From an uncultured Helicobacteraceae bacterium (GTDB lineage: Bacteria > Campylobacterota > Campylobacteria > Campylobacterales > Sulfurimonadaceae): a DNA stretch of 23,762 nt. Both the position numbers and the translations under genes were made by a program. Position 1 is the stretch's first letter, and every line of letters begins with the position of its first letter. Below the pieces are notes generated by a model, which was not told where the DNA came from, ran no database searches, and saw nothing but the letters and a program-made list of their open reading frames with translations. Shown in pieces: positions 2,269-23,699 of this stretch. Location of the stretch: NCBI GenBank assembly GCA_947311765.1, contig CAMZLS010000081.1:1-23762 (forward strand), read 5' to 3'.

Positions 2269-2720
2269 CCTAAAATTTTATGATTACTATCTATATTTGT
2301 TATTTTAAGGTGATAATTGATACCCTTTTTAAAAGAAGAGCCTATTAAAGAAATTATCAAAAATAAAAATCAAATACCTACTGAAATTGATTACGACACA
2401 CCATCTTTCACAAGATATAAAACTAAATTTCCGAAAGATTGGTTGTCACTAAAAGAAACTTAGGTTAGTTTTGGCATGGGACGAATTAAGACAAGAGGAC
2501 TTGCTTGATGATTGTTTTTTATTATTAAAATTTGACAATGAAGAAGAATTTTTTTTGATGTAAAACCATATGTTTACATTCAATATAAAAATCCAAATAG
2601 CCACAGAGACACTCTCTTGCCAAAACCTACCTCTAAATCTCTTTTTTTATTGCTATAACCACAATATTGTAGTATATAATTATGGTTGCATCAGTAATTT
2701 TTCATTTAAATCCAAATAAA

Positions 2721-2750
2721 CTTGACAGATGAATTTTAAGTATTATACTA
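2721..2750 (+). promoter_or_regulatory. Possible sigma70-like promoter for the desaturase gene (TTGACA ... TATAAT-like)
   Basis: TTGACA at 2721-2726 is followed by AT-rich -10-like hexamers (TATACT/TATAAT) about 17-21 nt downstream. The region is very AT-rich, so many alternatives exist. Confidence 0.25.
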
Positions 2751-2794
2751 TATAATTATCCAATTATTAACAAAGCATTATATAAAGGATAGCG

Positions 2795-3949
2795 ATGGCA
2801 CATACATATACACCGTATGAAGATATAGACAAGGGGAAACTTCAAGAAGATATTGAAGCTATAAAAAAGAATTTAGACCCTGTAAATTGGGAAGATTTTC
2901 AACATTTACTCAAACTTGAACGCTGGGGAAGAGGCGCTACTTTGAGTGGATTTTTTATCATTTTTGTTATTAGCTTTTTAGAAATAAATAGTTTTGTATT
3001 TTGGTCTTTTGCTCTTATTGCAGCTATACTTATTGGTGTTGGAAATGTGGCAAGATGGGCAAATGTTACACACCCTATCTTGCATGGTGCTTACGATAAG
3101 GTGCCAAATATCCCTCACAAATATACAAAAGCGGGTTATGCGCGTGGTTGGAGACGTTTTATCCACTGGTCTGATTGGATTAAGCCTGAGGCTTGGGAAT
3201 ATGAGCACAATATCATGCACCACTACCATTTAGGTGAATTAGATGACCCTGATAATGTGGAAGCAAACCTCCAATGGCTTGTAAAATCTAAAATCCCAAT
3301 GTGGCTACGCTACGCTATCGTTTATGCTTTTGCAACAACATGGAAATATACTTATTACGCCCCAAATACTTTACGAATTTTAGAAAATAAAGAGCGTCGC
3401 AAACGCAAAGAGCCAGAAATATATGATTATGAGATGAGCCCTTTTACAAAAAATGGTTTAGAATTGTGGAAAAATTACTATCTTCCTTATGGAATTATCC
3501 AGTTTGTTATTCTTCCCTTTCTCTTCTTTCCACTTGGAATGGAAGCGGTACTCAACGCTTTTATTATCTTAGTCATGGCAGAAGTTTTTGCCAATCTTCA
3601 CTCCTTTTTAGTGATTGTTCCTAACCACTCTGCTGGAGATATCTATATGTTTAATGAACCACATAAATCTCAAGGTGAATTTTACCTCCGTCAAATTATG
3701 GGAAGCGTAAACTACAACACAGGAACTGACCTTATCGACTTTGCGCATGGCTTTTTAAACTATCAAATAGAGCATCACCTCTTCCCAAATATGCCACACA
3801 GCTTTTATCAAAAAATGCAACCTATCGTAAAAAATATTTGTAAAGAGCACAATCTTGAATACCGCCAAGAGAGCGTTTGGAGACGAATATACTTATCTAT
3901 CGAACTGATGGTTGGAAACTCAAAAGCATTGCGAGTAAATGGTGTCTAG
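2795..3949 (+). CDS. Membrane fatty-acid desaturase family protein (di-iron, His-box)
   Basis: Three His boxes are present (HGAYDK region, HNIMHHYH, QIEHHLFP). Multiple TM segments. The QIEHH third box is typical of front-end or sphingolipid-type desaturases. SD AAAGGAT precedes the ATG. Confidence 0.85.
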   Translation: MAHTYTPYEDIDKGKLQEDIEAIKKNLDPVNWEDFQHLLKLERWGRGATLSGFFIIFVISFLEINSFVFWSFALIAAILIGVGNVARWANVTHPILHGAYDKVPNIPHKYTKAGYARGWRRFIHWSDWIKPEAWEYEHNIMHHYHLGELDDPDNVEANLQWLVKSKIPMWLRYAIVYAFATTWKYTYYAPNTLRILENKERRKRKEPEIYDYEMSPFTKNGLELWKNYYLPYGIIQFVILPFLFFPLGMEAVLNAFIILVMAEVFANLHSFLVIVPNHSAGDIYMFNEPHKSQGEFYLRQIMGSVNYNTGTDLIDFAHGFLNYQIEHHLFPNMPHSFYQKMQPIVKNICKEHNLEYRQESVWRRIYLSIELMVGNSKALRVNGV

Positions 3950-4805
3950 TCAATTAGAGATGTTTCATAGTTTTTGTACGCAAAATCAGCCTAAAACTAT
4001 GCAAGAGGCCTTTGAAAGCTTCGCTGTTTTTGGCGGTATGGGTGTCAAGATAGATACCTCTAAACCTCTTTTGTACTCTATCAAAAAACATATCTTAGAT
4101 GAGTATCATTTTATTCATGGTAATATCATTGAAAAAACGCGAGGTGATAGCGTCTATCACTCTGTTTTAACGGGTCTTGCTATTGGTGATGCTCAAGCAC
4201 ACACTGCTCTTAAGCGTGCCAAACTCTCTGCGGATGATGGCAAACATGTTATCAATCAACTCTGTCATTTTGGACTTTTAGAGCGTGAAGTTTCACGAAA
4301 AATTTCACACTCTTGGGTTGAAGAGAATACTGTTTCTGATAAACTCCATTTTGTTAGCCCTTTTATGCGTTTTTGGTTTGGATTTGTTTCGCCACTTTTT
4401 AAGGGAATAGCTGAGGGAGATTATGAGGAGTTTGAAAAACGCTTTGAAAATCGAAAACAAGAGTTTATGGAACAAGCCTTTATACTATTATCACAAGACT
4501 TTATAAGAGAAAACTTCACAGACGATCCCATTGTCGAGATGGGAAGCTATTGGGATAAAAATATAGAGATAGATATCTTTGCCAAAACTACATCTGGCAA
4601 AATTATCGTAGGTTCTTGCAAATATACAAACTCTAAAATCAAAAAAAATCTTCTTAATAAACTCAAAGAAGATGCCTTACATGTAAAGATGGATGCTGAT
4701 ATCTTTATTTTAATATCAAAACAAGGCTTTTCTAATGAAGTAAAATTACTAAAAAGCGAAAGTCTTAAACTTTTTACTTTAAGAAACTTTAGAACTTCTC
4801 TGTAA
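3939..4805 (+). CDS. DUF234-like (restriction-endonuclease-fold) domain protein; resembles the C-terminal two thirds of archaeal-ATPase/DUF234 proteins but lacks a P-loop
   Basis: C-terminal segment SYWDKNIEIDIFAKTTSGKIIVGSCKY matches the DUF234 core pattern (EIDIva...gEcK). No Walker A motif. Overlaps the desaturase stop by 11 nt. An alternative ATG exists at 3960. Confidence 0.4.
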   Translation: MVSSQLEMFHSFCTQNQPKTMQEAFESFAVFGGMGVKIDTSKPLLYSIKKHILDEYHFIHGNIIEKTRGDSVYHSVLTGLAIGDAQAHTALKRAKLSADDGKHVINQLCHFGLLEREVSRKISHSWVEENTVSDKLHFVSPFMRFWFGFVSPLFKGIAEGDYEEFEKRFENRKQEFMEQAFILLSQDFIRENFTDDPIVEMGSYWDKNIEIDIFAKTTSGKIIVGSCKYTNSKIKKNLLNKLKEDALHVKMDADIFILISKQGFSNEVKLLKSESLKLFTLRNFRTSL

Positions 4806-4995
4806 CTACACTAGCAAATCCCTATGAATTTAAATATTTCAAGAAATAACTTTCTTGGCACTTATCTCTTTATTTGCCACTCTTTTTGGCTACAATACTA
4901 CCTAAAAAGAGTGAGGTACTTTTCTATGCCAAAATGGATACGCATAAGCGTTGGGTTTTTACTGCTTTATAGCGCACTGCTTATTACTGCTTGCG

Positions 4996-5874
4996 ATGGG
5001 ATTCGTCATGCCCTCTAAAAAAGAGTTTACAAGCGCTTCTCGTTACACTCCTGATAAGCAGAAAAAAAAGTTTGTCACTGCTACGCCTGCTTTAAGTGGG
5101 GTTTTGCTTCTGCTTGTCGGGGTGAATTATCTCTCTTTAAGTGTTCAGGCTTTGGCAAAGGCTGAGAGTTTTTACTTTATAAGCACCTTAGCGATTTTTG
5201 CCACCTATGTGCTTGCTTTTGTTCTGCTAAGACGTGGCTTGGCGCTTGAGAAGATTTATAATGACTCGAAATATGCTAAAGCACCAAAATATCCCCTTAA
5301 AACCATAGCTGGCTCACTTCTTGCTCTCTCTACGGTCTATAGCGCTAGCTTTGGTGAATATTCTCTTTTTCCTGCTTTAATGCTTGGATTGAGTGTGCTT
5401 TTGGGTTGGTATCTTTATTATGGTTTTGATCCGCGTGAAGATAAGATTGATGGGTATGAGACCTCAAAATCTGCAGAACGGATTATGAAACTCTTAATTC
5501 AGGCAAGAGAAGATATTGACGCTATCAAAAAAAATGCAACAGAGTTAGAGGGCGGAGACATTCAAGATGCGATAAATACTACCGCCTTAGCCTTTGAAAA
5601 GATGGTTAAACATATCGAAGAGGAGCCTGATGATTATGATAGGGCTCGAAAATATCTTGTCAGCTATCTTGGTGAAGTCAGACAGATGTGTGAAACCTTT
5701 GTCAAACTAGACAAGCGAGGCAAGTCAGAGAGTATGAAAACATCTTTTTTAGAGACCTTACATGTAAGCATTGAAAATCTCGATACACAGTACGAGAAGC
5801 TTTTAGATGAGGATATGGTGAGCTTGGATATCAAGCTTTCGGTGATGAAAAAACGACTACAAAATGAGGAGTAG
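4996..5874 (+). CDS. Membrane protein with N-terminal TM helices and a C-terminal coiled-coil domain; XpaC-like (5-bromo-4-chloroindolyl phosphate hydrolysis protein family), tentative
   Basis: The ORF is open from a TTG at 4951. The first ATG is 4996 and the next is 5008 (MPSKKEF). About 4 hydrophobic helices are followed by a charged helical C-terminus. It sits immediately 5' of a TelA-like gene, as in Bacillus xpaC-yaaN. The family call is from memory of that architecture. Confidence 0.4.
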   Translation: MGFVMPSKKEFTSASRYTPDKQKKKFVTATPALSGVLLLLVGVNYLSLSVQALAKAESFYFISTLAIFATYVLAFVLLRRGLALEKIYNDSKYAKAPKYPLKTIAGSLLALSTVYSASFGEYSLFPALMLGLSVLLGWYLYYGFDPREDKIDGYETSKSAERIMKLLIQAREDIDAIKKNATELEGGDIQDAINTTALAFEKMVKHIEEEPDDYDRARKYLVSYLGEVRQMCETFVKLDKRGKSESMKTSFLETLHVSIENLDTQYEKLLDEDMVSLDIKLSVMKKRLQNEE

Positions 5875-6979
5875 CATAGTGGAAATGAAACAAGAGTTAG
5901 AGAAAATAGAAGTTCAAGACGAGCACTCAGTAGGTGCTTTGGTAGAGAAGATAGATTTAAGTTCAAGCGCGTCTATTATCCATTTTGGAGCAGATGCCCA
6001 AGAGGAGTTGACGACAGTTTCATCGGCTATGCTTGAGGGCGTTAAGGGCAAAGATTTAGGAGAGGCTAGTGGACCGCTATTAAATATGATAGCGACTATC
6101 AAAGGTTTTGATGTTGCCGCGCTTGATCCAAATAAGAAGCTCAGTTTTTTTGACAAACTCTTAGGTCGCGCTAAGCCTCTTGTCATGTTTTTGGAAAAAT
6201 ATGAAGATACAAAAGAGCAGATAGAGGCGATAACAGATGAACTAGAGAAGCAAAAAGGGACACTCTTAAATGATATAGAATCTCTTGATCGCCTCTATGA
6301 TGCAAATCTCAACTATATTCATGAGCTAGAAAATTATATCGTCGCTGGTGGCAAGAAGATAGAGCATCTTGATAGCACAGAGATACCACTTTTAGAGACA
6401 AAAGCCACAGAGAGTGACAATATGCTTGAAGCCCAAGAGCTCAAAGACTTACGCGCTTCTCGTGATGATTTTGAGAGACGGGTACATGACTTGATGCTGA
6501 CTCGCCAAGTGGCACTGCAGGCACTTCCATCTATCCGCCTTGTTCAAGATAATGACAAAACCTTGATAAACAAGATAAACTCAACACTTGTAAATACCGT
6601 GCCACTATGGAAAAATCAACTCGCACAGACGATTACGATTTACAGAAATCAAAAAGCAGGTGGTGTGCTTAAAGAGGCGATGGACTTAACCAACGAGCTT
6701 TTAGAAGCCAATGCGAAAAACCTCAAAGAGGCAAATCGTCAGACGCGAGAACTTGCAGAGCGTGGTGTTTTTGATATAGAGAGTATTAAGCTTGCCAATA
6801 AGCTTCTTATTGAGACCATAGAAGATGGTATTATGATAGCTGATGAGGGCAAAAAAGCTCGTGCGAAAGCTGAAGCAGAACTAGTAGGTTTAGAACAAGA
6901 GCTCAAAGATGCTCTTGTAGCGACTCAGGTGCACAAAGAGCGTTTAGACAAATCAAAAGAGATAGCTAAGGAGGCGTAG
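5864..6979 (+). CDS. TelA-like toxic-anion-resistance family protein
   Basis: A 371-aa all-helical protein with a conserved N-terminal region (IIHFGADAQEEL ... ) and long coiled-coil stretches typical of the TelA/KlaA/YaaN family. It overlaps the upstream gene by 11 nt. Alternative starts lie at GTG 5879 or ATG 5885, after GAGGAG. Confidence 0.6.
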   Translation: MRSSIVEMKQELEKIEVQDEHSVGALVEKIDLSSSASIIHFGADAQEELTTVSSAMLEGVKGKDLGEASGPLLNMIATIKGFDVAALDPNKKLSFFDKLLGRAKPLVMFLEKYEDTKEQIEAITDELEKQKGTLLNDIESLDRLYDANLNYIHELENYIVAGGKKIEHLDSTEIPLLETKATESDNMLEAQELKDLRASRDDFERRVHDLMLTRQVALQALPSIRLVQDNDKTLINKINSTLVNTVPLWKNQLAQTITIYRNQKAGGVLKEAMDLTNELLEANAKNLKEANRQTRELAERGVFDIESIKLANKLLIETIEDGIMIADEGKKARAKAEAELVGLEQELKDALVATQVHKERLDKSKEIAKEA

Positions 6980-6980
6980 C

Positions 6981-8090
6981 ATGGGATTTTTTGATAAAAT
7001 AATGGGTGAGTTTATTGATGTTATTGAGTGGACTGATGGCTCCAATGATACGATGGTGTACCGTTTTGAGCGTTATGGCAATGAGATAAAGCATGGAGCA
7101 AAGCTGACTGTACGTGAGTCACAAGTGGCAGTTTTTGTCAACGAAGGGGAGATAGCAGATATCTTCGAGCCAGGCATCTATGAGCTAGAGACGCAAAATA
7201 TGCCGATAATGACAACACTTAATCACTGGGATCACGCTTTTAACAGCCCTTTTAAAGCGGAGGTCTATTTCTTTAATCTTCGCCGTTTTGTGGATCTTAA
7301 ATGGGGCACAAAAAACCCTCTTATGCTTCGAGATAAAGAGTTTGGACCTGTACGTATCCGCGCCTTTGGTACTTATGGTATCAAGATAGAAGAGCCTGAA
7401 ACTTTCTTAAAAGAGATAGTGGGAACTGATGGGTATTTTACTGTTGATGAGGTGAGCGACCAACTGCGAAATCTTATCGTTTCACGCTTTGCCACTATCG
7501 TAGGACAGGCAAATATCCCTATCTTGGACTTGGCTGCTAACTATGAGCAGATGAGTGAGTTTGTAGAGGAGAAAATCTCTCCAGAATTTAGTGCATATGG
7601 GCTGGAACTCACTAAACTTCTGATAGAAAATATCTCCCTCCCACCAAAAGTCGAAGAGGCACTCGATAAACGCACAGGCATGGGACTAACGGGCAACCTT
7701 GATGATTATCTCAAGTATCAAGCAGCCGAGGCTTTGAGCAGTTCAGGCTCAGGCAGCGGCGCAGCAGGTGATGCTATGGGTATGGGTATGGGTTTTGCAA
7801 TGGCACAGCAGATGGCAAACTCTTTAGGCGCGAACAACGCTTCACAGCCTCAATCGCACGCTACGCCGCCGCCACCACCAATTCCCAAAGCACAAACCTA
7901 CCACTTCGCTATAAACGGAGCATCCAAAGGCCCGATGACGATAGAGCAGATAAAAACAGCGATTCGTAGTGGGGAGATAGAAAAAGAGACTCTTGCGTGG
8001 CGCGAGGGGATGAGTGGCTGGGAGAAAGCGCAAGATGTAGATAATCTTAGCACTCTTTTCGGCTCTATGCCACCACCGATACCGAGCTAG
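6981..8090 (+). CDS. SPFH (band-7)-like domain protein with a C-terminal GYF-like DUF4339 domain; YdjI-like / COG4260 'virion core protein-like'
   Basis: N-terminus MGFFDKIMGEFIDVIEW...RESQVAVFVNEGEI...PGIYELET matches the YdjI-type SPFH family. It has a Gly/Ser/Met-rich linker and a PPPPP stretch. The C-terminal YHFAINGASKGPMTIEQIKTAIRSGEIEKETLAWREGMSGWEKAQDV is a DUF4339-type module. Start is 2 nt after the upstream stop. Confidence 0.65.
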   Translation: MGFFDKIMGEFIDVIEWTDGSNDTMVYRFERYGNEIKHGAKLTVRESQVAVFVNEGEIADIFEPGIYELETQNMPIMTTLNHWDHAFNSPFKAEVYFFNLRRFVDLKWGTKNPLMLRDKEFGPVRIRAFGTYGIKIEEPETFLKEIVGTDGYFTVDEVSDQLRNLIVSRFATIVGQANIPILDLAANYEQMSEFVEEKISPEFSAYGLELTKLLIENISLPPKVEEALDKRTGMGLTGNLDDYLKYQAAEALSSSGSGSGAAGDAMGMGMGFAMAQQMANSLGANNASQPQSHATPPPPPIPKAQTYHFAINGASKGPMTIEQIKTAIRSGEIEKETLAWREGMSGWEKAQDVDNLSTLFGSMPPPIPS

Positions 8091-8092
8091 TT

Positions 8093-9154
8093 ATGAAAAA
8101 AGAGTATATATTTCCTTGCGAGCAGTGTGGCGCGAAACTCAACTACTCCGTAGCTACTGGTGAGCTTACTTGCCCTTACTGTTCGCATGTAAATAAGATA
8201 GAGAGAGCTTTTTCTCAAGTTGTAGAGAAAGATTATGAAAAAGCACTCCAAGAGCTAAAAAATTTCAGTGAACATCCAAGTGAGATAACAAGCTCAAAAT
8301 GCCCGACTTGTGCGGCAACTTTTGAGTTAAGTGAAGATATCCACGCCTCAGAGTGCCCTTTTTGTGGCAGTGCAGTTGTCAATGAAGTCTCACGCTACAG
8401 ACCGATAAAACCCCAAGCACTGCTCCCTTTTGCCATAGATAAGAAAAAAGCAAAAATACTTTTCAAAGAGTGGCTCAAAGGGCGATGGTTTGCTCCAAAT
8501 AAACTCAAAGAGTATAGTGCAGAAGATAGTACCTTAGAGGGAATATTTGTGCCGTACTGGACCTATGATGCAGATACTCATAGCCGTTATAGTGGGCGTA
8601 GGGGTGATGCTTACTATGTGAGTGAGAGCTATACAGAAAATGGTGTAAGCAAAACAAGACGAGTTGAAAAGATACGCTGGAGTAGTGTCAGCGGAGAGTT
8701 AAGCAAAAATTTTGATGATGTTTTAGTGGTTGCTACGAATTCACAAACAAATGCTTCGTATAATTGGGATTTGAAAAACTTAGTCGATTATGATGAAGGA
8801 TTTTTAAGTGGCTATGAGAGTGAGGTCTATTCGGTAGAGCTAGATGATGGACTTAAAAGTGCTAAAACAACTATGACATATCACATACGAGAGGCAGTCA
8901 AACGCCAAATAGGAGGCGATAGACAAGAGATAAGCTCATTAAATAGCGACTTTTTCAATATCACTTTCAAGCATATACTCCTCCCAGTCTATGCCTCTGC
9001 TTTCAAGTTTGATGGAAAAGTATATAGCTATATCATCAATGGAAGAAATGGAGAGATAAGCGGAGAGAGACCATATAGTGTTATTAAGATAACTTTTGCG
9101 GTTCTTAGTGCTTTAGTTATAGGTGGTGCGATTTACTATTTTTCAAATCAATAA
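8093..9154 (+). CDS. Double zinc-ribbon protein with a C-terminal transmembrane anchor (YdjG-like partner of SPFH proteins, tentative)
   Basis: Two CxxC...CxxC ribbons (CEQCGAKL..CPYCSH; CPTCAATF..CPFCGS), a central domain, and the C-terminal helix VIKITFAVLSALVIGGAIYYF. Start is 3 nt after the upstream stop. Confidence 0.5.
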   Translation: MKKEYIFPCEQCGAKLNYSVATGELTCPYCSHVNKIERAFSQVVEKDYEKALQELKNFSEHPSEITSSKCPTCAATFELSEDIHASECPFCGSAVVNEVSRYRPIKPQALLPFAIDKKKAKILFKEWLKGRWFAPNKLKEYSAEDSTLEGIFVPYWTYDADTHSRYSGRRGDAYYVSESYTENGVSKTRRVEKIRWSSVSGELSKNFDDVLVVATNSQTNASYNWDLKNLVDYDEGFLSGYESEVYSVELDDGLKSAKTTMTYHIREAVKRQIGGDRQEISSLNSDFFNITFKHILLPVYASAFKFDGKVYSYIINGRNGEISGERPYSVIKITFAVLSALVIGGAIYYFSNQ

Positions 9155-10530
9155 TAAATCTTCATCTTTTCAGGATATGTTATCGTATAAATAACATTCA
9201 TCTTTTTACTTGTATTGCCTTTGATATCGGCTATGATGGTAAGCTTACCCGTTTTTGTATCATACTTATAAGGAAGATCTAGTTTTTCAAGGCTTACTTC
9301 TATCTCTTCTTGTGTTGAGAGTGGGATGCGTTCTGTGATGATAACTTTTTTATCTTTATCAGAACGATTTGTGAGAGTGAGTCTAAAGCCCTCTTTTTTA
9401 ACTCTTGCAGAGCTAAAGATACTCTTGTCTTGAGAAAACTCATGGATAGTCTCTTTTTTTGTTTCCATATCATAATCTATAGCAACATTGAGTAAAATCT
9501 TTGTACCATCCTTGCGAATTGGGGCATTTTCTATGAGTTGTCCTTTGTGACGTACCTTCCACTGTCGTGACTCTATGGTCTGTTTTGGAGTGAAACTTGC
9601 TGTTTTATATACATTGCTACTATTATAAGGGTGCCAAGTGAGTGTAGTGTTGATAGTGAGCTTTTCGCTATCAAGAGGAAGTTTTTTCTCTTTAGCATCT
9701 GAAGCGAGAGTAAGATTTTTGAGGTGGTAGCTTCGCGTCTCTAGTTTTTTTACATGGTAGCTATTTTCAGCAACAGGAGCAGGAGCCGCTGCCATTAGCA
9801 CCATATCTTGTCGCACAGCTCTTTTGGCTTTCATCTGTGCTTGTGCAATACGAATTTTTCTAGGATAAAACTGTGTTGGTGCGCTGATATAGCCTGCTGG
9901 TTTTGCAAAAAGTCTCACTTCTTCTGCCTCTATATCTATGCCAGAGGCATTGCTTAAAAGGAGTGAGTGTTGCAGTTTTGAGCTGTCCATATCCAAAAGA
10001 TATTCACTATGGAAGTAGAGTCCGCGGTTGATAGTGAGTTGTACTTTGGATTTTGGTATATCTGCATAAAAGAGAGGCTCTTTGCTTGGAGCATGTTTGG
10101 AAAACAGAGCACTTGCATTTTGTATCTCTTTTTGAAGATTTTGACTCTCTTGGGCTATTTTTGCCATACGTGAAGCGATTGTGCTTGCTGTTTTTATGGT
10201 ATTTTGAGCATCTATGTTTGTATCTGGAGCGTATTGGGAGATGATGGTATCTAAGATATTTTGCTCTTTTTTGAGTCTATCAAGCCTTACATGTAAGCCT
10301 TGTAGATGAGTGTATTGTGTGCATAGGCTACTCTTTGTCTTACAACTATTTCTTCTTATAAGCCCCAAGGAACCTTCTGAATTTTTAGCTTTTAAGTTTG
10401 TATTAAAACCTATAAAACTCTCTTTGGGTTCGTAGGTATAAAAACTTCTATCAGAGTAGATATCAAGAGATGAAGCAAGGAGTGCGATTTGACTTAGTGA
10501 TATGATGATAACTGAGAGGCGAAGTGACAT
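9148..10530 (-). CDS. Secreted/periplasmic protein of unknown function with a signal peptide and coiled coil; possibly a DUF4139/DUF4140 (MuiA-like) family member
   Basis: N-terminus MSLRLSVIIISLSQIALLASS is a signal peptide. 460 aa with long helical Q/K-rich stretches followed by a beta-rich C-terminal half. The family guess is weak. Convergent 7-nt overlap with the upstream + gene. Confidence 0.55.
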   Translation of the reverse strand: MSLRLSVIIISLSQIALLASSLDIYSDRSFYTYEPKESFIGFNTNLKAKNSEGSLGLIRRNSCKTKSSLCTQYTHLQGLHVRLDRLKKEQNILDTIISQYAPDTNIDAQNTIKTASTIASRMAKIAQESQNLQKEIQNASALFSKHAPSKEPLFYADIPKSKVQLTINRGLYFHSEYLLDMDSSKLQHSLLLSNASGIDIEAEEVRLFAKPAGYISAPTQFYPRKIRIAQAQMKAKRAVRQDMVLMAAAPAPVAENSYHVKKLETRSYHLKNLTLASDAKEKKLPLDSEKLTINTTLTWHPYNSSNVYKTASFTPKQTIESRQWKVRHKGQLIENAPIRKDGTKILLNVAIDYDMETKKETIHEFSQDKSIFSSARVKKEGFRLTLTNRSDKDKKVIITERIPLSTQEEIEVSLEKLDLPYKYDTKTGKLTIIADIKGNTSKKMNVIYTITYPEKMKIYY

Positions 10531-10582
10531 TATAATTTCCTTTAGAGTATAATACCCAATTATTTAATTTATAGGCAAGAAT

Positions 10583-12409
10583 ATGACAAAATTTCTACTC
10601 TACTCTTTTGTGCTCTTTTTTACATTTTTACAAACTCCACTCACCGCTGATGATATCTTTGGTGATTTTATCGCTAAACAGATAGAGATAGAGACACAGT
10701 TTTTAGATAAAAATATGACTTCTAGTAGTGTAGAAAAATTAATGAATGAGCAAAACCGTGATTATCGTACCTTTTTCTTGGCGCTTATCTCAAAAGATAT
10801 GGATGTTTTCAAAGGGACAAAAGATTATAAGCTTGCAGTCTCTACCCTAGAGAGACGCATGAAGATAAATAAACAACGCGGTAACACAAGAGCTTACCTT
10901 CGAGATAAGCTAAAACGAAATACTTATCTTCTTCTACAAAACATCAAAGAGACCTTTGAAGCAGTAAAAACTGCAACAAAGAGCAATACAAAAAAAGAGT
11001 TTGATAAGCGTATAGATTCCATTGTAGCCTCTCGCCATGAAAAAGATGAGACAATAGATATAAAAAAATATAATTTTCTTAAGCAAAGTGGTGATACAAG
11101 TGAAATGACACAAAAGATTCGTGCCAATTTTATCGAAAATCAGGCAGTTTTAAATATTCACAATATGATAAGTTCAGAGCTTGTACGCTTTAAATCACCT
11201 CTGTATGATGCTGTAAAACTCTCCTCTTTTGGCTTGGTATCGCTAGGGTATAAAATTAACACAAGCACATATGGAAGTAAACTCAATACTTATATCTCTT
11301 GGAGTGGTTTAGATAGTGCAAAAATTATTTTTATATTTTTCTTTTTACTTGTCTTGTATTTCGCTAGAAAATTGGTAGTTTTCCTCTCTGGTAAATTTTT
11401 GAAAAACTTTTTTGAAAAATCTGATGATATTAGTTTTATTATAAATAGTATCTCTGGTGTGGTAAGTCTTATTGTTATCGTTGTGAGTATTGATGTTGTG
11501 GTGAAGATATATGCAGGTTTTATGGATGCACCGTGGATACGTTTGAGTTTTAGTATCGCTTATACTGTCTTGATTACCTATCTTGTGCAAAAACTTATCA
11601 GCGCGGTAGCAACACTCAAGATAGAGCAGTTTAGGCGTTCAGAGTATCTGCGTCATGAGGTTATCAACCTTGCTATGCGTGTGCTCAATATTTTTATCTA
11701 TATCATCGGTTTAGTTGTGGTTTTAAATCTTTTTGATGTTGATTTAAGTGCTATCCTTTCTGGTCTTGGAATTGGTGGATTTGCCGTTGCTTTTGCGGCC
11801 AAAGATACTATTGCAAATTTCTTCGGTTCTGTCTCTATTTTGATGGGTGACCTTTTTGAACAAGGTGATTGGATAGCGGTAGATGGCTATGAGGGAACAG
11901 TCGTTGAAATTGGCTTACGCGCAACAACTATACGAACCTTTGACAATGCTATGATTGCCATTCCTAACTTTAAACTTGTGGATAATGGACTGAGAAATTG
12001 GAGCAAACGCCTTCTTGGTCGCCGTATCAAAATGCACATTGGTGTGACTTATGAGTCAGATTTTAAGGATATAAAAAAAGCTATTGATGAGATACGCCAG
12101 ATGTTAATCGAGCATAAAGATATAGCAAACTCAAATCAAGAAACACTCGCCCCAGAACGTTACGCCCGCTTAGTCTCAAGAGAAGACTATAGAGGTGTCA
12201 AGCGTACTATGCTTGTCTATATGGATAAATTTTCAGATTCAAGTATAGATATCTTGATTTACTGCTACTCTCGCTCTGTTGTCTGGAATGAGTGGTTAGC
12301 AACCAAAGAGGATGTAATGTATAAAATCGCAGAGATACTAGAGAAAAACAATCTCTCCTTTGCTTATCCTGCTCTAGCTATTCATCAAGTACAAGAGCAG
12401 TCTTTTTAA
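10583..12409 (+). CDS. mscS: Mechanosensitive ion channel, MscS family (large N-terminal periplasmic domain type)
   Basis: Signal-like N-terminus, multiple TM helices, and the MscS pore/beta-domain signature (GDWIAVDGYEGTVVEIGLRATTIRTFDNAMIAIPNFKLVDNGLRNWSK). Confidence 0.9.
   Translation: MTKFLLYSFVLFFTFLQTPLTADDIFGDFIAKQIEIETQFLDKNMTSSSVEKLMNEQNRDYRTFFLALISKDMDVFKGTKDYKLAVSTLERRMKINKQRGNTRAYLRDKLKRNTYLLLQNIKETFEAVKTATKSNTKKEFDKRIDSIVASRHEKDETIDIKKYNFLKQSGDTSEMTQKIRANFIENQAVLNIHNMISSELVRFKSPLYDAVKLSSFGLVSLGYKINTSTYGSKLNTYISWSGLDSAKIIFIFFFLLVLYFARKLVVFLSGKFLKNFFEKSDDISFIINSISGVVSLIVIVVSIDVVVKIYAGFMDAPWIRLSFSIAYTVLITYLVQKLISAVATLKIEQFRRSEYLRHEVINLAMRVLNIFIYIIGLVVVLNLFDVDLSAILSGLGIGGFAVAFAAKDTIANFFGSVSILMGDLFEQGDWIAVDGYEGTVVEIGLRATTIRTFDNAMIAIPNFKLVDNGLRNWSKRLLGRRIKMHIGVTYESDFKDIKKAIDEIRQMLIEHKDIANSNQETLAPERYARLVSREDYRGVKRTMLVYMDKFSDSSIDILIYCYSRSVVWNEWLATKEDVMYKIAEILEKNNLSFAYPALAIHQVQEQSF
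12329..12396 (+). repeat. Direct repeat copy 1 (inside the 3' end of mscS), 68 bp
   Basis: Identical except for 1 nt to 15537..15604. Confidence 0.85.
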
Positions 12410-12754
12410 ATAAATTTGTGTTGAATGCCTTTTTTATTCGACCATATTACATATACAACACCTAGCACCATACTTATTGCTATAAAAATTTCTAATAATT
12501 ATTTACCCATTTCTTGCCCCTTTTTATAGGGTTAAGCAAAAAGTGTTCTTGATACTGGAATGGGCTAGTAGATTTAATTATAGAATACACAATAAATAAA
12601 CTTAAGGCATTTTTTAAATCTTAAAAATGGCTATAAAGAAAACTAGCTACTTCTGGTTATTGAATTTGCAAGTGGCTCTTTAGTAATTAATAATATTAGT
12701 TATGTTAAAGTATTTATGTGATTTTATATCATAATAAATATATAAGGGGTTAAA

Positions 12755-14729
12755 ATGAAATCTACTAAAATGGGGGGGGGCACTTTTTGTCCTATTGATA
12801 TCATTGCAGTGTAATGCGATAGCTGATAACCAAAATGTACTTAATGCAAAAGCAAAAACTTTTGAGAATGTATCCTTAGATATCGCACAAAGAGATGTTT
12901 TTTTATTAGAGTTAAATGAAAAATATAAAGTTAAGGATGTTGCCAATAAAGTGTCCACAAAATTACTAAAAGTATTGTTGGATAATAAAACAATAAATAT
13001 AGCAGTTGACCTTTTTATTAGTGATGATGTAAATGATTTTACATATACAAAAAATAACAAATATATTAACGCACAAGCAACATATACTTTTAATTTAGAT
13101 ACTAACAAATCGTCATATACTTTAAATGGTGAAAAAAGTATTGATGATTCTATTGCTCAGTATATGGTTGCACAAGAGTTCTTTTTTGCAGAAAAAAAGA
13201 GACTTCGAGAAGAGAAGCGTCAGAAAAATATTAAAAAAATTACTTTAATTTTAAAAAATAATAAGAAAATAAACGCTTTATTAAGTTCTACGTCTGATTA
13301 TGTGAGCATTAATCTTGATAAACATGAACTAGCAAAGCTTCTTAAAGAGGCTGGAGATGCAATTAACGCATATGATATCCATAGTAAATTAACACCATCA
13401 AATACTGCTGCAGAGTGGGATAATAGTCGTAATGGATATTTACAAGGAGTTTCTATAACACAAATGCATGGAGTATGGAATGATTACTTTCCAAATACTA
13501 GAGGTGAAAATATTGCTATTTATTACTCAGATGCACATTGCCCCAATAATGGAAATGATTTGTATTATGGCTATGTTGCAACAACAGGAGCTTGCCAAGA
13601 AGTAGGAAACCTTAACGATGAGGACACAGGTGCAGGGTATCATACACGAATTATAACTGGAATTCTTAGTACAGTTGCTAATGAAGTGAATTTGCTTTGT
13701 AATGATCATGCTAGAGATAGCAGTGATGTAGATAGCCGTTTACCAACTGCTATGGGAAATATAAATATTGAAACATATAGTTTAAATAACTATAATGATA
13801 ATACCTTATCATACAAAAATATTGATGTTGCATTTGATCACCATGCATTTAATAATCGTACAATTCCAGTATTTGTATCAGCTGGTAATAAATTGGATGA
13901 ACTGAATCCAGACAATCACGTTTTATCTCCAGCAAAAGCTTTTAATATTACTACTGTAGGTTCGTACGGGAGAGATGCTGTAGCTGGTACTTTAAGTTGG
14001 TCGAACTTTTCAAGCAATGTTAATCCTGAGACTATAATTGGAAATAGGACTATTCAAAAACCTGAAGTGTCTGGACCAGGAGAACATTTCCATTGTGCTG
14101 ATATTGTAGGTGATGATAGTTGTCATGAACTCTTTAATGAAGATTCTGGAACAAGTTTTGCAACTCCATGGATTGCGGCTATGGCTGCAGATGCTATGTC
14201 TCGTGGGTCATACTGGAGAAGTAGTGCAGCTATGGTCAAAGCTTTAGTTATTTCTGGTGCTTCAGACCCAATTGCAGGTACAAGAGATGAAGTAGGTGAA
14301 GGTGGGGTTGATCTTTTTACAATGACTTGGCAAAATACTAATAGTGGTTATTGGTATGATGCAAATCCTTCAGAGCCATTTAGTGGTACTAATCCAAGCC
14401 AGTTTGATTATAATAACAACTGCTTTACTAATTGGCAAACTCAATTATATGATGGAAGAGATCAACGGATAGTTATTTCTTGGCTTAATGATATTACTAA
14501 TGCCACAACATTGAGTAATATACCAAATAGCTATAGCTTAGAACTGATTAACTCAAATGGTTCTGTTGTTGAAAGCACTTCAGAAGATACACAAGGGTAC
14601 CAAATTATAAATACTAATCAGCCCGCAGGACTTTATACTGTTAGGGTGTGTAAGCTTAGACAGAATTCCTCTCAACGTTTTGATATGGGATTTTCAGTAT
14701 CACAAAGGACAACTCAATGGTGGGATTAA
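12755..14729 (+). CDS. Subtilisin-like (S8 family) serine peptidase with a signal peptide. It is frameshifted at a G9 tract in this sequence (phase OFF); it is in frame with G8 or G11. The in-frame portion begins at TTG 12795
   Basis: SD AAGGGG (12744-12749) is 5 nt upstream of ATG 12755. With 9 G the reading MKSTKMGGGTFCPIDIIAV stops. Removing one G gives MKSTKMGGALFVLLISLQCNA|IADNQ..., a signal peptide continuous with the 644-aa ORF. S8 motifs: FVSAGNKLD (oxyanion Asn) and DSGTSFATPWIAAMAA (catalytic Ser). Confidence 0.7.
12772..12780 (+). repeat. Homopolymeric G9 tract (candidate slipped-strand phase-variation switch) in the 5' coding region of the S8 protease
   Basis: Seen directly. Nine consecutive G in a genome segment of about 33% GC. 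Confidence 0.9.
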
Positions 14730-15508
14730 TAAATTTTACAAGTAAGACACTTTTAAGTATTTTACTTTTTATAATTATTTTTTTAGTTTCTGGATGCGGT
14801 GAAGATACTAAGTCTTCTTGTTCAAATAACTCTAATCTTAGTCGTAATGATGCGGGATACTATGGAGAAGATGTATATTTTGGTGGTCATAAGATTTTGG
14901 GAATATGGAGAACTGGTTTGAACTACCAAGAAAATAATTTTTTTAATATAGATGGGACTATGATTTATGAACGTGGAAGAATATATCGAAAGGTTTATCC
15001 ACAATATGGTGTAAGCGAGGATGGTAATGTGCTAAATATTATTGATGAAAATAATAATACTGAACATTATATATATATAAAATCAAATACTAACTGCTTT
15101 AGTGTTCTTAAAAAATCAACACAAAAAGAAATACAGTTTTGTAAATACGAGACGTTAAGTTTTATTGATAACTCATTGAGAAAAAATACTGAACTTGGTT
15201 TTTTTGGTTACGCAACACTATTTGGGTATGAACGTATAGTAGGGTCATGGAAATATATCCCAATTAATGGTGCATATACAGAAATTTTTGATTTTAAAGA
15301 AGATGGTAGTGGCTTTAAAAGGGTAGTGACAATATATGGTGGAAAGGAAGAGCATATTCCATTTCATTATGGAGTTAGTCAAGATGGTAAAGAGCTAGAT
15401 CTTCAGATGGCAGATGATTCTATAGAAATATATCAACTTGTTAGCACATTTGAGGGTTGTTATAAAATGATACATCAAGATGTAGAATATAAATTATGCA
15501 AACCCTGA
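14717..15508 (+). CDS. Lipoprotein of unknown function
   Basis: Signal peptide plus lipobox (LLFIIIFLVSGC). The 13-nt overlap with the protease stop suggests translational coupling. No recognisable domain. Confidence 0.6.
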   Translation: MVGLINFTSKTLLSILLFIIIFLVSGCGEDTKSSCSNNSNLSRNDAGYYGEDVYFGGHKILGIWRTGLNYQENNFFNIDGTMIYERGRIYRKVYPQYGVSEDGNVLNIIDENNNTEHYIYIKSNTNCFSVLKKSTQKEIQFCKYETLSFIDNSLRKNTELGFFGYATLFGYERIVGSWKYIPINGAYTEIFDFKEDGSGFKRVVTIYGGKEEHIPFHYGVSQDGKELDLQMADDSIEIYQLVSTFEGCYKMIHQDVEYKLCKP

Positions 15509-15536
15509 TTTTTTCAGAGTTTATCTTAAAGCTATT

Positions 15537-15604
15537 GCAGAGATACTAGAGAAAAACAATCTCTCCTTCGCTTATCCTGCTCTAGCTATTCATCAAGTAC
15601 AAGA
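15537..15604 (+). repeat. Direct repeat copy 2 (displaced mscS 3' end remnant), 68 bp
   Basis: Matches 12329..12396 with one mismatch (T/C). In-frame remnant ...AIHQVQE then a stop. Confidence 0.85.
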
Positions 15605-15621
15605 ATAATTTAACAAACATT

Positions 15622-15661
15622 TACCTCTAAGGAGTACACTTCGCTTATCAATTTAGAGGTA
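15622..15661 (+). promoter_or_regulatory. Hairpin (9-bp stem TACCTCTAA / TTAGAGGTA, 22-nt loop) immediately upstream of moxR; the 3' arm contains the moxR SD (AGAGGT)
   Basis: The inverted repeat is seen directly. A perfect AAGGAG sits in the loop, 30 nt from the ATG. Function is unknown; it could be a terminator, an occluded RBS, or an att-core remnant. Confidence 0.35.
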
Positions 15662-15665
15662 TTAC

Positions 15666-16613
15666 ATGTATAAAAAAATAGAAGCAATAAAATCAGAAAT
15701 TTCAAAAGTAGTAGTTGGTCAAGATAAGATGATTGACGGATTATTAATCGGTCTTTTATGTGAAGGGCATATTCTTATAGAGGGTATTCCAGGTCTTGCT
15801 AAGACAACTACAGTTAAAGCACTTTCCGAGAGTTTGGGTCTTGGGTTTAAGCGTGTTCAGTTTACCCCTGACTTGTTGCCATCAGATATTTTAGGAGCAG
15901 AGATTTATGATCCTAAGAGTAATGAGTTTAAAATCAAACACGGTCCAATTTTTACAAACCTTCTCCTTGCAGATGAGATTAACCGTGCACCAGCAAAGGT
16001 ACAATCAGCACTGCTTGAAGTGATGCAAGAGCGTCAAGTGACTATTGGTGAAGAGAGTTTTAAACTTACTCCTCCATTTTTTGTTATGGCTACGCAAAAT
16101 CCAATAGAACAAGAGGGTGTCTATCAACTTCCAGAAGCGCAACTAGACCGTTTTATGATGAAGCTTAATATTGGCTATAACACGCAAGAAGAAGAGTTAG
16201 AGATAGCAAGACGTATCGCCAACAAACAGAGTGAAACAATAAAAGCTGTCGTAACACTCGAAGAGATTGAAGCACTCAAACAAGCAGTCTCTGAAGTGCA
16301 TGTAGATGAAGAGGTCGAAAAATACATTATTGAACTTGTTCAAGCTACGCGTAATCCTGAAAACTATGGTTTAAAAGAGATGAAAGAGCATATTCAGTTT
16401 GGTGCTTCTCCTCGTGTAAGTATTGATATGTTCAAGGCCGTTAAAGCGATGGCATATCTTCGTGGCAAAGATTTTGTAACACCTGTTGATATCGCTTATA
16501 TTGCCAAAGATATGATGCGCCACCGTATCGTTTTGAGCTATGAAGCAGAAGCAGAAGGTATCACAACTGACCAGATTATAGAAAATGTACTCAAAGCGGT
16601 GCCTATCCCCTAA
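15666..16613 (+). CDS. moxR: MoxR-family AAA+ ATPase
   Basis: Walker A GIPGLAKTT, Walker B LLADEINRA, sensor and arginine-finger regions. Canonical MoxR length (315 aa). Confidence 0.95.
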   Translation: MYKKIEAIKSEISKVVVGQDKMIDGLLIGLLCEGHILIEGIPGLAKTTTVKALSESLGLGFKRVQFTPDLLPSDILGAEIYDPKSNEFKIKHGPIFTNLLLADEINRAPAKVQSALLEVMQERQVTIGEESFKLTPPFFVMATQNPIEQEGVYQLPEAQLDRFMMKLNIGYNTQEEELEIARRIANKQSETIKAVVTLEEIEALKQAVSEVHVDEEVEKYIIELVQATRNPENYGLKEMKEHIQFGASPRVSIDMFKAVKAMAYLRGKDFVTPVDIAYIAKDMMRHRIVLSYEAEAEGITTDQIIENVLKAVPIP

Positions 16614-17443
16614 TGTCAAAGCTTCAAAAAATCCTTGTCCGCGCACGCCGACAAGTCTTTTCAGAGATGGTGGGAAACAATCCTTCTATCTTTCAAGGCG
16701 AGGGTTACGATTTTATCGAGATGCGTGAATACAATCACGGAGATGATATTCGCCATATTGATTGGAATGTTACCGCGAAGATGCAGCGTCCCTACATCAA
16801 AATTTTTCGTGAAGAGCGAGAGTTAAATGTAGTGATGGCATCTATGCTTAATGGTTCCGTTCACTTTGGAAGTAAGAAGTTCAAACAAGAGACTATTGCG
16901 GAGCTTGTTGCGCTGCTTAGTTTCTCAGTTTTACGCAATGGCGACTTGTTGAGTCACTATATCTTTGCTGATAAGATGTATCAAAATGATAAGCCTAGTA
17001 AAAAGATGTTTGCAGTGCAAAAGTATGTAGAGTCTATTTTAGAATTTGATGCTTTAAATAAAAAAGCAGATTATAAAATGATGGCAGACACTCTCTATAA
17101 ACGTCTTAAAAGAAAATCACTGCTTATTATCATAGGTGACTTTTTCGAGATACCTGATTTTCGTCTTTTGGCGAAAAAACATGAAGTTATTGCGGTAATT
17201 GTTCGTGATAAATTAGAAGAAAATCCTCCAGTGATGGGTTTTAGCTCACTAAGTGATCCAGAATCAGGGCAGATGCTAGAGGGTGATTTTAACCGCAGTA
17301 GTGTAAATGCTTATGCGCAAAAAGTGGCAGAGCATGACCGTAAACTGTTTGAGCGTTTTCGTAAAGATCAGGTACATTTTACAAAAATATATACAGACGA
17401 TGTAGCAAGTGTGAAGCTCCGTCGTCTCTTTGAGGGGAGATAA
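16613..17443 (+). CDS. DUF58 domain protein (MoxR partner, VWA-like)
   Basis: DUF58 signature GDDIRHIDWNVTAKMQRPYIKIFREERELNVVM. TAATG stop/start overlap with moxR. Confidence 0.85.
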   Translation: MSKLQKILVRARRQVFSEMVGNNPSIFQGEGYDFIEMREYNHGDDIRHIDWNVTAKMQRPYIKIFREERELNVVMASMLNGSVHFGSKKFKQETIAELVALLSFSVLRNGDLLSHYIFADKMYQNDKPSKKMFAVQKYVESILEFDALNKKADYKMMADTLYKRLKRKSLLIIIGDFFEIPDFRLLAKKHEVIAVIVRDKLEENPPVMGFSSLSDPESGQMLEGDFNRSSVNAYAQKVAEHDRKLFERFRKDQVHFTKIYTDDVASVKLRRLFEGR

Positions 17444-23687: not shown

Positions 23688-23699
23688 CCCCCCCCCCCC
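23688..23699 (+). repeat. Homopolymeric C12 tract (preceded by C5TT), non-coding
   Basis: Seen directly. Twelve consecutive C, about 60 nt from the window end. No ORF spans it. Confidence 0.9.

What the first reader, a model, noticed from the sequence alone, without database searches (positions are those of the whole stretch)
12329..15604. Islet flanked by a 68-bp direct duplication of the mscS 3' end (att-like), with no integrase
The last 68 bp of the MscS-family gene (12329-12396) recur with a single mismatch at 15537-15604, just upstream of the moxR promoter region. The second copy still encodes the MscS C-terminal peptide. The 3.1 kb between the copies (S8 protease, lipoprotein, an AT-rich leader with the G9 tract) therefore looks inserted by a site-specific event that regenerated the gene end. 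That is typical of integrative elements, but here no recombinase is left. This suggests a decayed or trans-mobilised element, or a recombination module targeting gene 3' ends.
Basis: seen in the sequence. Interest (0 to 1): 0.7.

Follow-up and report, generated by a model that had tools for sequence, protein, structure and literature searches.

The report
Recombinase-less gene cassette at mscS end
A 3.1-kb foreign two-gene cassette (a switchable secreted protease plus a lipoprotein) sits at the very end of a channel gene between two copies of that gene's last 71 bases; close relatives have the empty site, so it is a real insertion, of a known but mechanistically unresolved type, and it carries no recombinase.

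Summary
A 71-nt direct repeat (12326-12396 / 15534-15604, 2 mismatches; 68 nt with 1 mismatch as reported) flanks 3,137 nt. Three independent contigs of ~98%-identical strains have the exact empty site: mscS ending QVQE*, one copy of the 71-mer, then moxR. The cargo is an AT-poorer-in-GC (31.5% vs 37.7%) operon: an S8 peptidase whose signal peptide is out of frame at a G9 tract (G8 restores it), plus a lipoprotein. Homologous modules elsewhere lie beside a Tn7-like transposon, between IS copies, or near a tRNA gene. No recombinase or transposase, terminal inverted repeats or tRNA are present in the contig. The repeat core occurs nowhere else in the collections searched. No recombinase lies near mscS in 79 other loci. 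A second, unrelated insert flanked by a 43-nt duplication of the mscS end exists in Sulfuricurvum. In both cases the repeat stops within 1 nt of the stop codon. Best reading: one crossover between the chromosomal mscS end and a copy of it on incoming DNA, probably by host recombination ('insertion with long target duplication'). A trans-acting integrase (CIME-like) is the main rival. It is a new member of a known kind, of moderate interest.

The parts
10583..12409 (+). mscS-family mechanosensitive channel gene (608 aa), the target gene; ends QVQEQSF* instead of the QVQE* seen in empty-site strains
   Evidence: Pfam MS_channel_1st/2nd/3rd; 97% identical to the 605-aa P0001
12326..12396 (+). Direct repeat copy 1 (attL-like): the last 71 nt of the mscS coding sequence, identical to the single copy in the empty-site contigs
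12397..12754 (+). Left end of the insert: 13 nt that extend mscS by QSF* (12397-12409), then an AT-rich non-coding leader upstream of the protease gene; no similarity to any other locus, no Rfam family
12772..12780 (+). G9 homopolymer just after the ATGs at 12755 and 12770. G9 stops the ATG frame at 12812-12814. G8 fuses a signal peptide (MKSTKMGGALFVLLISLQC...) to the protease, so this is a probable phase-variation switch, OFF as assembled
12755..14729 (+). S8 (subtilase) peptidase gene, frameshifted at the G9 tract (mechanical ORF 12795-14729); His (YHTRI) and Ser (GTSFATP) motifs are present
   Evidence: Pfam Peptidase_S8 E=3.9e-17; homologs P0122-P0131; motifs
14717..15508 (+). Lipoprotein gene (263 aa, lipobox LVSGC) overlapping the protease stop by 13 nt; conserved partner of the protease in other loci (41-43% identity)
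   Evidence: no family hit
15509..15533 (+). Right end of the insert: only 25 nt between the lipoprotein stop and copy 2; part of a hairpin (15499-15523)
15534..15604 (+). Direct repeat copy 2 (attR-like): displaced mscS 3' end with two synonymous-type differences (15536 T, 15569 C), followed by the native TAA (15605-15607) and the native intergenic sequence
15623..15660 (+). Native hairpin (ACCTCTAA...TTAGAGGT) between the mscS end and moxR; its right arm overlaps the moxR ribosome-binding site; present in the empty-site strains
   Evidence: sequence
15666..16613 (+). moxR (AAA_3 ATPase), first gene of the moxR-DUF58-batA-batB-batD operon; the right flank of the insertion

Best explanation
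A horizontally acquired, non-autonomous two-gene cassette (a phase-variable secreted S8 protease plus its lipoprotein partner) entered the chromosome at the extreme 3' end of mscS. It did so by one reciprocal crossover between the chromosomal mscS end and a copy of about 71 nt of that end carried on the incoming DNA. The incoming DNA was either circular or acted as a one-ended homologous anchor with an illegitimate second joint. A single crossover of this kind duplicates the shared segment. It leaves mscS intact (plus 3 codons) on the left and a displaced, silent copy of its end in front of moxR on the right. No recombinase is encoded in cis. I consider host homologous recombination acting on DNA taken up from a related strain the most likely catalyst. 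That places the event in the class described in epsilon-proteobacteria as 'insertion with long target duplication'. The 71-nt repeats now allow precise loss, or amplification, by recombination between them. SHOWN: the insertion polymorphism, the exact junctions, the foreign composition, the absence of mobility genes, and the association of the cargo with mobile elements elsewhere. INFERRED: that the incoming DNA carried its own mscS end, the single-crossover geometry, and the enzyme.
For: (1) Exact empty site in three independent contigs. Window 2113-12396 matches L001 1-10288 (97.9%) and window 15534-17035 matches L001 10218-11719 (98.9%), overlapping on one 71-mer. (2) The two copies look like two alleles of a functional gene end. 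Both differences are synonymous third-codon positions. Copy 1 equals the empty-site allele, while copy 2 differs from it at about the local strain divergence of 3-4%. (3) The repeat stops 1 nt before the mscS stop codon. The independent Sulfuricurvum case (L086/L098, perfect 43-nt repeat, unrelated 855-nt cargo) stops 1 nt after it. This is expected if the homology is a carried copy of coding sequence, and not expected for random staggered breaks. (4) No integrase, transposase, terminal inverted repeats or tRNA in the window. No recombinase at E<=10 in 4,429 ORFs of 1.13 Mb, with a positive control at 3.6e-56. No integrase family among the 25 most frequent Pfam families of the 131 ORFs downstream of mscS. 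(5) The core 41-mer is found only in the empty-site contig in JGI metagenomes and in no viral contig; the islet has no plasmid or phage match. (6) The cargo is foreign: GC 31.5% vs 37.7%, the lowest of all 3,137-nt windows, and GC3 0.17-0.19 vs 0.29-0.44. The module is cargo-like elsewhere: beside a Tn7-like tnsA/tnsB/tniB/tniQ set, between two IS copies, and near tRNA-Leu. (7) Experimental precedent: a single crossover of a circle carrying a partial gene end gives 109-950-bp duplications without a site-specific recombinase (PMC3240628). The same anatomy is catalogued in H. pylori, Campylobacter and other competent bacteria (PMC2853133).
Against: The origin of the first junction, exactly at the stop codon, is not explained by homologous recombination alone; it only moves the question to the donor. 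Two insertions at the same gene end in two genera hint at targeting (1 of 79 other mscS ends vs 0 comparable events elsewhere in ~1.1 Mb; about p=0.07), which favours a site-specific system. Natural competence of this organism is not shown. No donor arrangement (mscS...QSF* followed by the cassette without a second repeat) was found. With only two mismatches, the allele argument is weak (roughly p=0.06-0.11).
Confidence: 0.5

Rival explanations
1. Site-specific integration by a tyrosine recombinase supplied in trans or since lost. On this reading the islet is a decayed or hitch-hiking integrative element (CIME-like), the 71-mer is its att core, and the element-borne copy of the core is kept by selection because it restores the mscS reading frame.
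For: The repeat ends at the stop codon in both the window and the Sulfuricurvum case, which is the classic gene-end-restoring design. The mismatches are synonymous. Differences lie in the left part of the repeat, with a perfect block next to the stop codon in both cases. The same gene end is used twice. CIMEs with intact attL/attR and no integrase are an established class (PMC6323972).
Against: No integrase in the window, none near 79 other mscS loci, and none in the Sulfuricurvum contigs. The core is not found on any other element in JGI metagenomes or viral contigs. The two cores share no sequence, so one recombinase could not serve both. Only 25 nt separate the cargo from copy 2, leaving little room for arm-type sites. 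No inverted-repeat core architecture was recognised. The rest of the genome could not be searched.
Confidence: 0.3
2. Target-site duplication from two staggered breaks 71 nt apart, or two independent illegitimate joints, with foreign linear DNA captured between them. This is the break-repair model proposed for restriction-modification genes. Both copies would then derive from the recipient.
For: The anatomy meets the published criteria for insertion with long target duplication except for the cargo type. There are no mobility genes and no element ends.
Against: Both copies should be identical at birth, yet they differ at two synonymous sites while copy 1 equals the allele of other strains. The right boundary falls within 1 nt of the stop codon in two independent cases, about (3/60)^2 by chance over the permissive zone. 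The cargo has no nuclease or RM genes to make the breaks.
Confidence: 0.1
3. The arrangement is old or ancestral (an ancient segmental duplication), and the 'empty' strains are deletion derivatives produced by recombination between the repeats.
For: Recombination between 71-nt repeats would regenerate exactly the empty site. Polarity cannot be set with an outgroup, because mscS-moxR adjacency exists only in this species-level group.
Against: The repeats are 97% identical, not diverged. The cargo has a strongly deviant composition and is associated with mobile elements elsewhere. A duplication of a gene end still requires an insertion event at some point, so this changes the timing and not the mechanism.
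Confidence: 0.05
4. Metagenome assembly artefact: a separate molecule sharing the 71-mer was threaded into the chromosome path.
For: The window is a whole MAG contig (23,762-nt contig), and no reads are available. The islet is a singleton in the databases.
Against: The two copies differ at two positions, so they are not one collapsed graph node. The longest shared exact block is 35 nt, shorter than the final k of common metagenome assemblers (own knowledge). A 3.2-kb circle without a replication gene is implausible as a free replicon.
Confidence: 0.03

Closest known systems
'Insertion with long target duplication' (Nobusato et al. 2000; Furuta et al. 2010, PMC2853133), described for restriction-modification genes in H. 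pylori, Campylobacter, Haemophilus, Neisseria and others
   Same: A small insert (<20 kb) absent from a close relative; a direct repeat >30 bp that aligns with a single copy in the empty genome; no other mobility genes; an epsilon-proteobacterial host; repeats that can overlap a gene's 3' end.
   Different: The cargo is not an RM system, so the proposed dependence on RM-made double-strand breaks cannot apply. Here the repeat ends at the stop codon, and the copies look like two alleles.
Campbell-type single-crossover integration of a circle carrying a partial gene end (experimental: PMC3240628, E. coli lacZ end, duplications of 109-950 bp)
   Same: It produces an insert flanked by a direct duplication of the gene-end fragment, without a site-specific recombinase. 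The left edge of the repeat is where the carried fragment starts, and the right edge is where homology stops.
   Different: The homology here is shorter (71 nt). The natural source of the circle or fragment is unknown, and the event is inferred, not observed.
CIMEs (cis-mobilizable elements): att-flanked remnants of integrative elements without integrase (PMC6323972; e.g. elements at the 3' end of fda in Streptococcus thermophilus, from my own knowledge)
   Same: Direct repeats of a gene 3' end flank a small cargo with no recombination or transfer genes.
   Different: No cognate integrase-bearing element with this core was found in any collection searched. att function is untested.
Prophages that integrate into protein-gene 3' ends and carry a substitute end (e14 and phage 21 in icd of E. 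coli; own knowledge)
   Same: An element-side copy of the gene end keeps the ORF intact. The displaced native end remains as a pseudo-3' end with mostly synonymous differences.
   Different: Those elements encode their integrase next to the att site. This islet has none and is only 3.1 kb.
Homopolymer-controlled contingency (phase-variable) genes of Campylobacter and Helicobacter (own knowledge)
   Same: A poly-G tract directly after the start codon of a surface or secreted protein gene, where a one-base change switches the frame.
   Different: Length variation in the population was not observed here, and the host is a vent-type Sulfurimonas-like bacterium.

Membership tests
Insertion with long target duplication (Furuta 2010 criteria) | Insert absent in a closely related genome, with both flanks aligned | tested here: met
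   L001-L003 empty site; flanks 97.9% and 98.9% identical
Insertion with long target duplication (Furuta 2010 criteria) | Flanking direct repeat >30 bp that aligns with a single copy in the empty genome | tested here: met
   71 nt, 69/71; single copy at L001 10218-10288
Insertion with long target duplication (Furuta 2010 criteria) | Insert <20 kb with no other mobile-element genes | tested here: met
   3,137 nt; Pfam on all ORFs and a recombinase search were negative
Insertion with long target duplication (Furuta 2010 criteria) | Insert contains restriction and modification genes | tested here: not met
   The cargo is an S8 peptidase plus a lipoprotein
CIME / decayed integrative element | attL and attR direct repeats flanking a cargo that lacks integration and transfer genes | tested here: met
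   Structure only; att activity was not tested
CIME / decayed integrative element | A cognate integrase-bearing element that uses the same att core | tested here: inconclusive
   The core occurs only in the empty-site contig (JGI metagenomes) and in no viral contig. No integrase near 79 mscS loci. The rest of the source genome is not available
CIME / decayed integrative element | Recombinase-dependent excision to a circle with regeneration of attB | not testable with these tools
   Needs reads or PCR
Integrase-mediated island/prophage at a gene 3' end | Tyrosine or serine recombinase gene inside the element next to an att site | tested here: not met
Integrase-mediated island/prophage at a gene 3' end | The identity block runs from the crossover to the end of the target gene so that the ORF is preserved | tested here: met
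   The repeat ends 1 nt before the stop codon; mscS is intact plus 3 codons
Tn7-like transposon insertion | tnsA/B/C plus tniQ, TnsB-binding terminal repeats with TGT...ACA ends, 5-bp target duplication | tested here: not met
   None in the window. A homologous cargo module does lie beside a Tn7-like set in L004-L006
IS / composite transposon | Transposase, terminal inverted repeats, short target duplication | tested here: not met
   In L007/L008 the homologous module is bounded by IS inverted repeats
Phase-variable contingency gene | Homopolymer in the 5' coding region whose length change restores or breaks the frame | tested here: met
   G9 gives a stop at 12812-12814; G8 gives a signal peptide fused to the protease
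Phase-variable contingency gene | Tract-length heterogeneity within a population | not testable with these tools
   Needs reads

The most novel reading that the evidence does not exclude
The 3' end of this MscS-family gene is a dedicated landing site in vent and subsurface Campylobacterota for a class of recombinase-less cassettes. Each cassette carries a copy of the gene's last codons up to the stop codon, and they are moved by an unidentified trans-acting or host-encoded system. That would be a gene-end-targeting cassette system distinct from integrons, Tn7-like elements and classical integrases. The evidence does not exclude it: two unrelated cargos in two genera, both with repeats ending at the stop codon, and no recombinase within reach.
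Probability: 0.12. Interest if true: 0.7.

Novelty: new member of a known kind. Interest (0 to 1): 0.35.

Why it matters
This is a clean natural example, with the empty site in hand, of a gene cassette entering a chromosome with a long duplication of a gene end and without any mobility gene. The cargo is not a restriction-modification system. That argues the 'insertion with long target duplication' pattern known from Helicobacter and Campylobacter does not depend on RM-made breaks, and that it extends to chemolithotrophic Sulfurimonas-like bacteria. The stop-codon-precise repeat boundary, seen twice, narrows the mechanism to recombination with a carried copy of the gene end. The case also shows how a phase-variable surface-protease module moves between Tn7-like, IS-bounded and 'naked' contexts.

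Tried and rejected
Exact look-ups of the window's MscS, MoxR and the annotated protease found no record, and the cluster look-up gave no accession or organism name. Plasmid and phage nucleotide searches of the islet gave no match. Rfam on 12000-16000 gave nothing. Defence (PADLOC) and NCBIfam scans of the cargo gave only weak generic subtilase hits far below cut-off and nothing for the lipoprotein. I looked for long target duplications around the homologous S8 modules in L004-L014: none. The 34-nt repeat in L012 is better explained as a remnant of a tandem partner-gene paralog, as seen in L013/L014. I looked for conserved islet ends across loci: nucleotide similarity starts only inside the protease gene. 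I tried to set polarity with outgroups, but mscS is not followed by moxR in any of 79 more distant loci. I looked for an empty site for the Sulfuricurvum case, but all four assemblies are occupied or end inside the insert. A suspected transposase remnant after the L010 protease was not supported by Pfam, and no tRNA-end repeat was found there. A Tn7 or IS origin of the window's insertion was rejected for lack of ends, short duplications or transposase genes.
Full report
OBSERVATION. The window contains a 71-nt direct repeat at 12326-12396 and 15534-15604 with two mismatches. No such match is expected by chance (0.00 in 100 shuffles). Copy 1 is the end of a 608-aa MscS-family gene (10583-12409; Pfam MS_channel_1st/2nd/3rd). 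Copy 2 lies 61 nt upstream of moxR (15666-16613, AAA_3). In the mscS frame it still reads ...IAEILEKNNLSFAYPALAIHQVQE followed by TAA. Between the copies are 3,137 nt: a 358-nt AT-rich leader, an S8 peptidase gene and a lipoprotein gene. The window has no tRNA gene and no integrase or transposase. All other ORFs are ordinary chromosomal genes: an MFS fragment, a PP2C-kinase, a desaturase, DUF234, TelA, SPFH, a zinc-ribbon protein, DUF4139, the moxR-DUF58-batA-batB-batD operon, rubrerythrin and a peroxiredoxin.

IT IS AN INSERTION, AND THE EMPTY SITE EXISTS. The closest MscS in the protein collection (P0001, 97% identity) is 605 aa long and ends QVQE*, three residues shorter than the window's QVQEQSF*. 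It is encoded on three independent contigs (JGI 3300026510, ENA ERZ27262649, Logan SRR7968110), all with the same upstream genes and with moxR starting 57 nt after mscS. Window 2113-12396 aligns to L001 1-10288 at 97.9%, and window 15534-17035 aligns to L001 10218-11719 at 98.9%. The two alignments overlap on a single 71-mer. Base by base, the single copy is identical to window copy 1 and runs into the flank of copy 2 (GAATAATTTAAC...). The window diverges after 12396 into GCAGTCTTTTTAA.... The event is therefore a 3,208-nt gain: 3,137 nt plus one repeat unit. Its left joint is one base before the mscS stop codon, so mscS keeps all 605 codons and gains three.

THE CARGO. The islet has 31.5% GC against 37.7% for the rest of the contig, lower than any other 3,137-nt window (minimum 34.4%). 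GC3 is 0.19 and 0.17 for its two genes against 0.29-0.44 for neighbouring genes. The protease has S8 His and Ser motifs. Its true start is the ATG at 12755. With the assembled G9 tract (12772-12780) that frame stops after 19 codons. With G8 it reads MKSTKMGGALFVLLISLQCNAIADN..., a signal peptide in frame with the protease. So the gene is OFF as assembled and looks phase-variable. The 263-aa partner has a lipobox and is 41-43% identical to the genes that follow the protease homologs elsewhere, so the two genes form a conserved module. Homologs are few (18 proteins; the next best is 71% identical), and their contexts are telling. In L004-L006 the module sits next to tniQ-tniB-tnsB-tnsA of a Tn7-like element. 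In L007/L008 it is bounded by the terminal inverted repeats of two IS copies, and the protease there is split at an A9 tract. In L010 a tRNA-Leu gene lies about 490 nt downstream. In L009, L012 and L013 it is in unrelated chromosomal neighbourhoods. None of these copies has a long target duplication around it. The module is a travelling cargo, and the way it is inserted in the window is not a property of the module.

WHAT IS NOT THERE. There are no terminal inverted repeats at the islet ends, no Rfam family, and no plasmid or phage similarity. A 41-nt core of the repeat occurs in JGI metagenome contigs only in the empty-site contig already found, and in no viral contig. In 79 further mscS loci from species-representative genomes, the 131 ORFs downstream of mscS show no integrase family among the 25 most frequent Pfam families. 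A direct search with XerD, lambda Int and gamma-delta resolvase against all 4,429 ORFs of the window and all loci (1.13 Mb) found nothing even at E<=10, whereas a control XerC scored 3.6e-56. mscS is followed by moxR only in the window's own species-level group. In 62-66% relatives it is followed by a conserved 131-aa gene, an rsmD-like gene (Pfam Cons_hypoth95) and flgI. Outgroups therefore cannot set polarity, and the downstream side of mscS is a synteny breakpoint.

CLUES TO THE MECHANISM. (a) The two mismatches (15536, 15569) are both synonymous third-codon positions in the mscS frame. Copy 1 and the 44 nt before it are identical to the empty-site strains, although mscS differs from them by about 4% in its last third. 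Copy 2 differs at 2 of 71 positions, roughly the background rate. The copies thus look like two alleles of a functional gene end, which implies that the incoming DNA brought its own copy. The statistics are weak (about 0.06-0.11). (b) The repeat ends one base before the stop codon. (c) A scan of all 79 loci for a second copy of the mscS end found one more case. In a Sulfuricurvum MAG (L086, also L098), a perfect 43-nt repeat covers the last codons of mscS, the stop codon and one more base. It extends leftwards imperfectly to about 54 nt and flanks 855 nt carrying a 102-aa ORF and a weak AbiEii-like fragment, again without a recombinase. A self-comparison of all 1.13 Mb found no other recombinase-less repeat pair of this kind. 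The only other hits are IS-related multi-copy repeats in L079. No empty site was found for the Sulfuricurvum case; four of four assemblies are occupied or end inside the insert. Two independent repeats ending within one base of the same gene's stop codon are hard to reconcile with random staggered breaks. They are expected if recombination took place between the chromosomal gene end and a carried copy of coding sequence.

EXPLANATION. The geometry I consider best supported is one reciprocal crossover between the chromosomal mscS end and about 71 nt of mscS end on the incoming molecule. A single crossover duplicates the shared segment on both sides of the cargo. The left edge of the repeat marks where the carried fragment begins, and the right edge marks where homology ends. 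This outcome has been obtained experimentally without a site-specific recombinase: circles carrying part of the lacZ end gave 109-950-bp duplications (PMC3240628). [quoted passage not shown] I favour host recombination on incoming DNA (confidence 0.5) for three reasons: no recombinase is found anywhere within reach, the two cores are unrelated in sequence, and the cargos are unrelated. The main rival (0.3) is a trans-acting or lost integrase, making the islet a CIME-like remnant (PMC6323972). The stop-codon boundary, the perfect block next to the stop codon and the reuse of the same gene end speak for it. The absence of any cognate element, and the mere 25 nt between the cargo and copy 2, speak against it. 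Staggered-break duplication (0.1), an ancestral arrangement with deletion in the relatives (0.05) and an assembly artefact (0.03) are less likely, for the reasons given under the rivals.

COMPARISON AND NOVELTY. The islet meets three of the four published criteria for insertion with long target duplication and fails the fourth, RM cargo. It has the structure of a CIME, but the cognate integrase element could not be found. It is not a Tn7-like or IS insertion. I rate it a new member of a known kind. The non-RM cargo, the stop-codon-precise boundary and the second case in another genus are the points of interest. They leave a small chance (about 0.12) that the mscS end is a dedicated landing site for an unrecognised cassette system.

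LIMITS. The window is a whole MAG contig without reads. The rest of the genome, the organism's competence, and the tract-length and excision states in the population could not be examined.

Noticed in passing
window 12755-12814 (G9 at 12772-12780): The S8 protease start is decoupled from its body by a G9 tract. G8 (or G11) would restore a signal peptide in frame, so this is a probable phase-variable contingency gene, OFF as assembled.
   Followed up: partly
L007 2002-2010 (also L008 401-409): The 71%-identical protease homolog is split into 87-aa and 564-aa ORFs at an A9 tract, and A8 would restore the frame. This is either a second homopolymer switch in the family or a sequencing error.
   Followed up: partly
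L086 5036-5078 and 5934-5976 (also L098 7187/8085): Second case of an insert flanked by a duplicated mscS 3' end, in Sulfuricurvum: a perfect 43-nt repeat including the stop codon, around 855 nt with a 102-aa ORF and a weak AbiEii-like fragment. L099 carries a longer variant of the insert. No empty site was found.
   Followed up: yes
window 574, 588, 4677, 5758, 10287, 19805, 21717, 22095: The palindrome CTTACATGTAAG (core TTACATGTAA) occurs 8 times (<=1 mismatch) against 0.05 expected, in genes and between them, and never in the islet. It is enriched (0.1-0.3 per kb) only in the window's clade and absent from 75 of the 101 sequences searched. It could be a DNA-uptake-sequence-like motif or a regulator site.
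   Followed up: partly
window 23688-23699: C12 homopolymer (preceded by CCCCCTT) near the contig end, in a region with no long ORF as assembled; possibly another phase-variable promoter or 5' region.
   Followed up: no
L004 10001-17690 (also L005, L006): The S8-lipoprotein module lies in the cargo position next to tniQ-tniB-tnsB-tnsA of a Tn7-like element. An Abi_alpha gene and an IS200-type Y1 transposase gene are nearby.
   Followed up: partly
L012 8944-8977 and 10016-10049: A 34-nt direct repeat (91%) spans the protease end and lipoprotein start and recurs just after the lipoprotein gene. It is probably the remnant of a tandem partner-gene paralog (L013/L014 have two tandem partner genes), but formally it is another gene-end duplication.
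   Followed up: partly
window 16052-16196 vs L002: One empty-site contig (L002) matches the window closely up to 16047, then diverges sharply inside moxR (37 differences in about 135 nt). This looks like a recombination mosaic among strains. There is also a hypervariable patch in mscS at 11035-11091 (17 differences in 57 nt against all three contigs).
   Followed up: no
window 15623-15660: A conserved hairpin (ACCTCTAA...TTAGAGGT) lies between the native mscS end and moxR. Its right arm overlaps the moxR ribosome-binding site, so it may be an mscS terminator or a translational control element of moxR.
   Followed up: no
L017-L026 downstream of mscS: In the 62-66% relatives mscS is followed by a 131-aa gene, an rsmD-like gene and flgI/flgK, not by moxR. 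The downstream side of mscS is a synteny breakpoint in this clade.
   Followed up: partly
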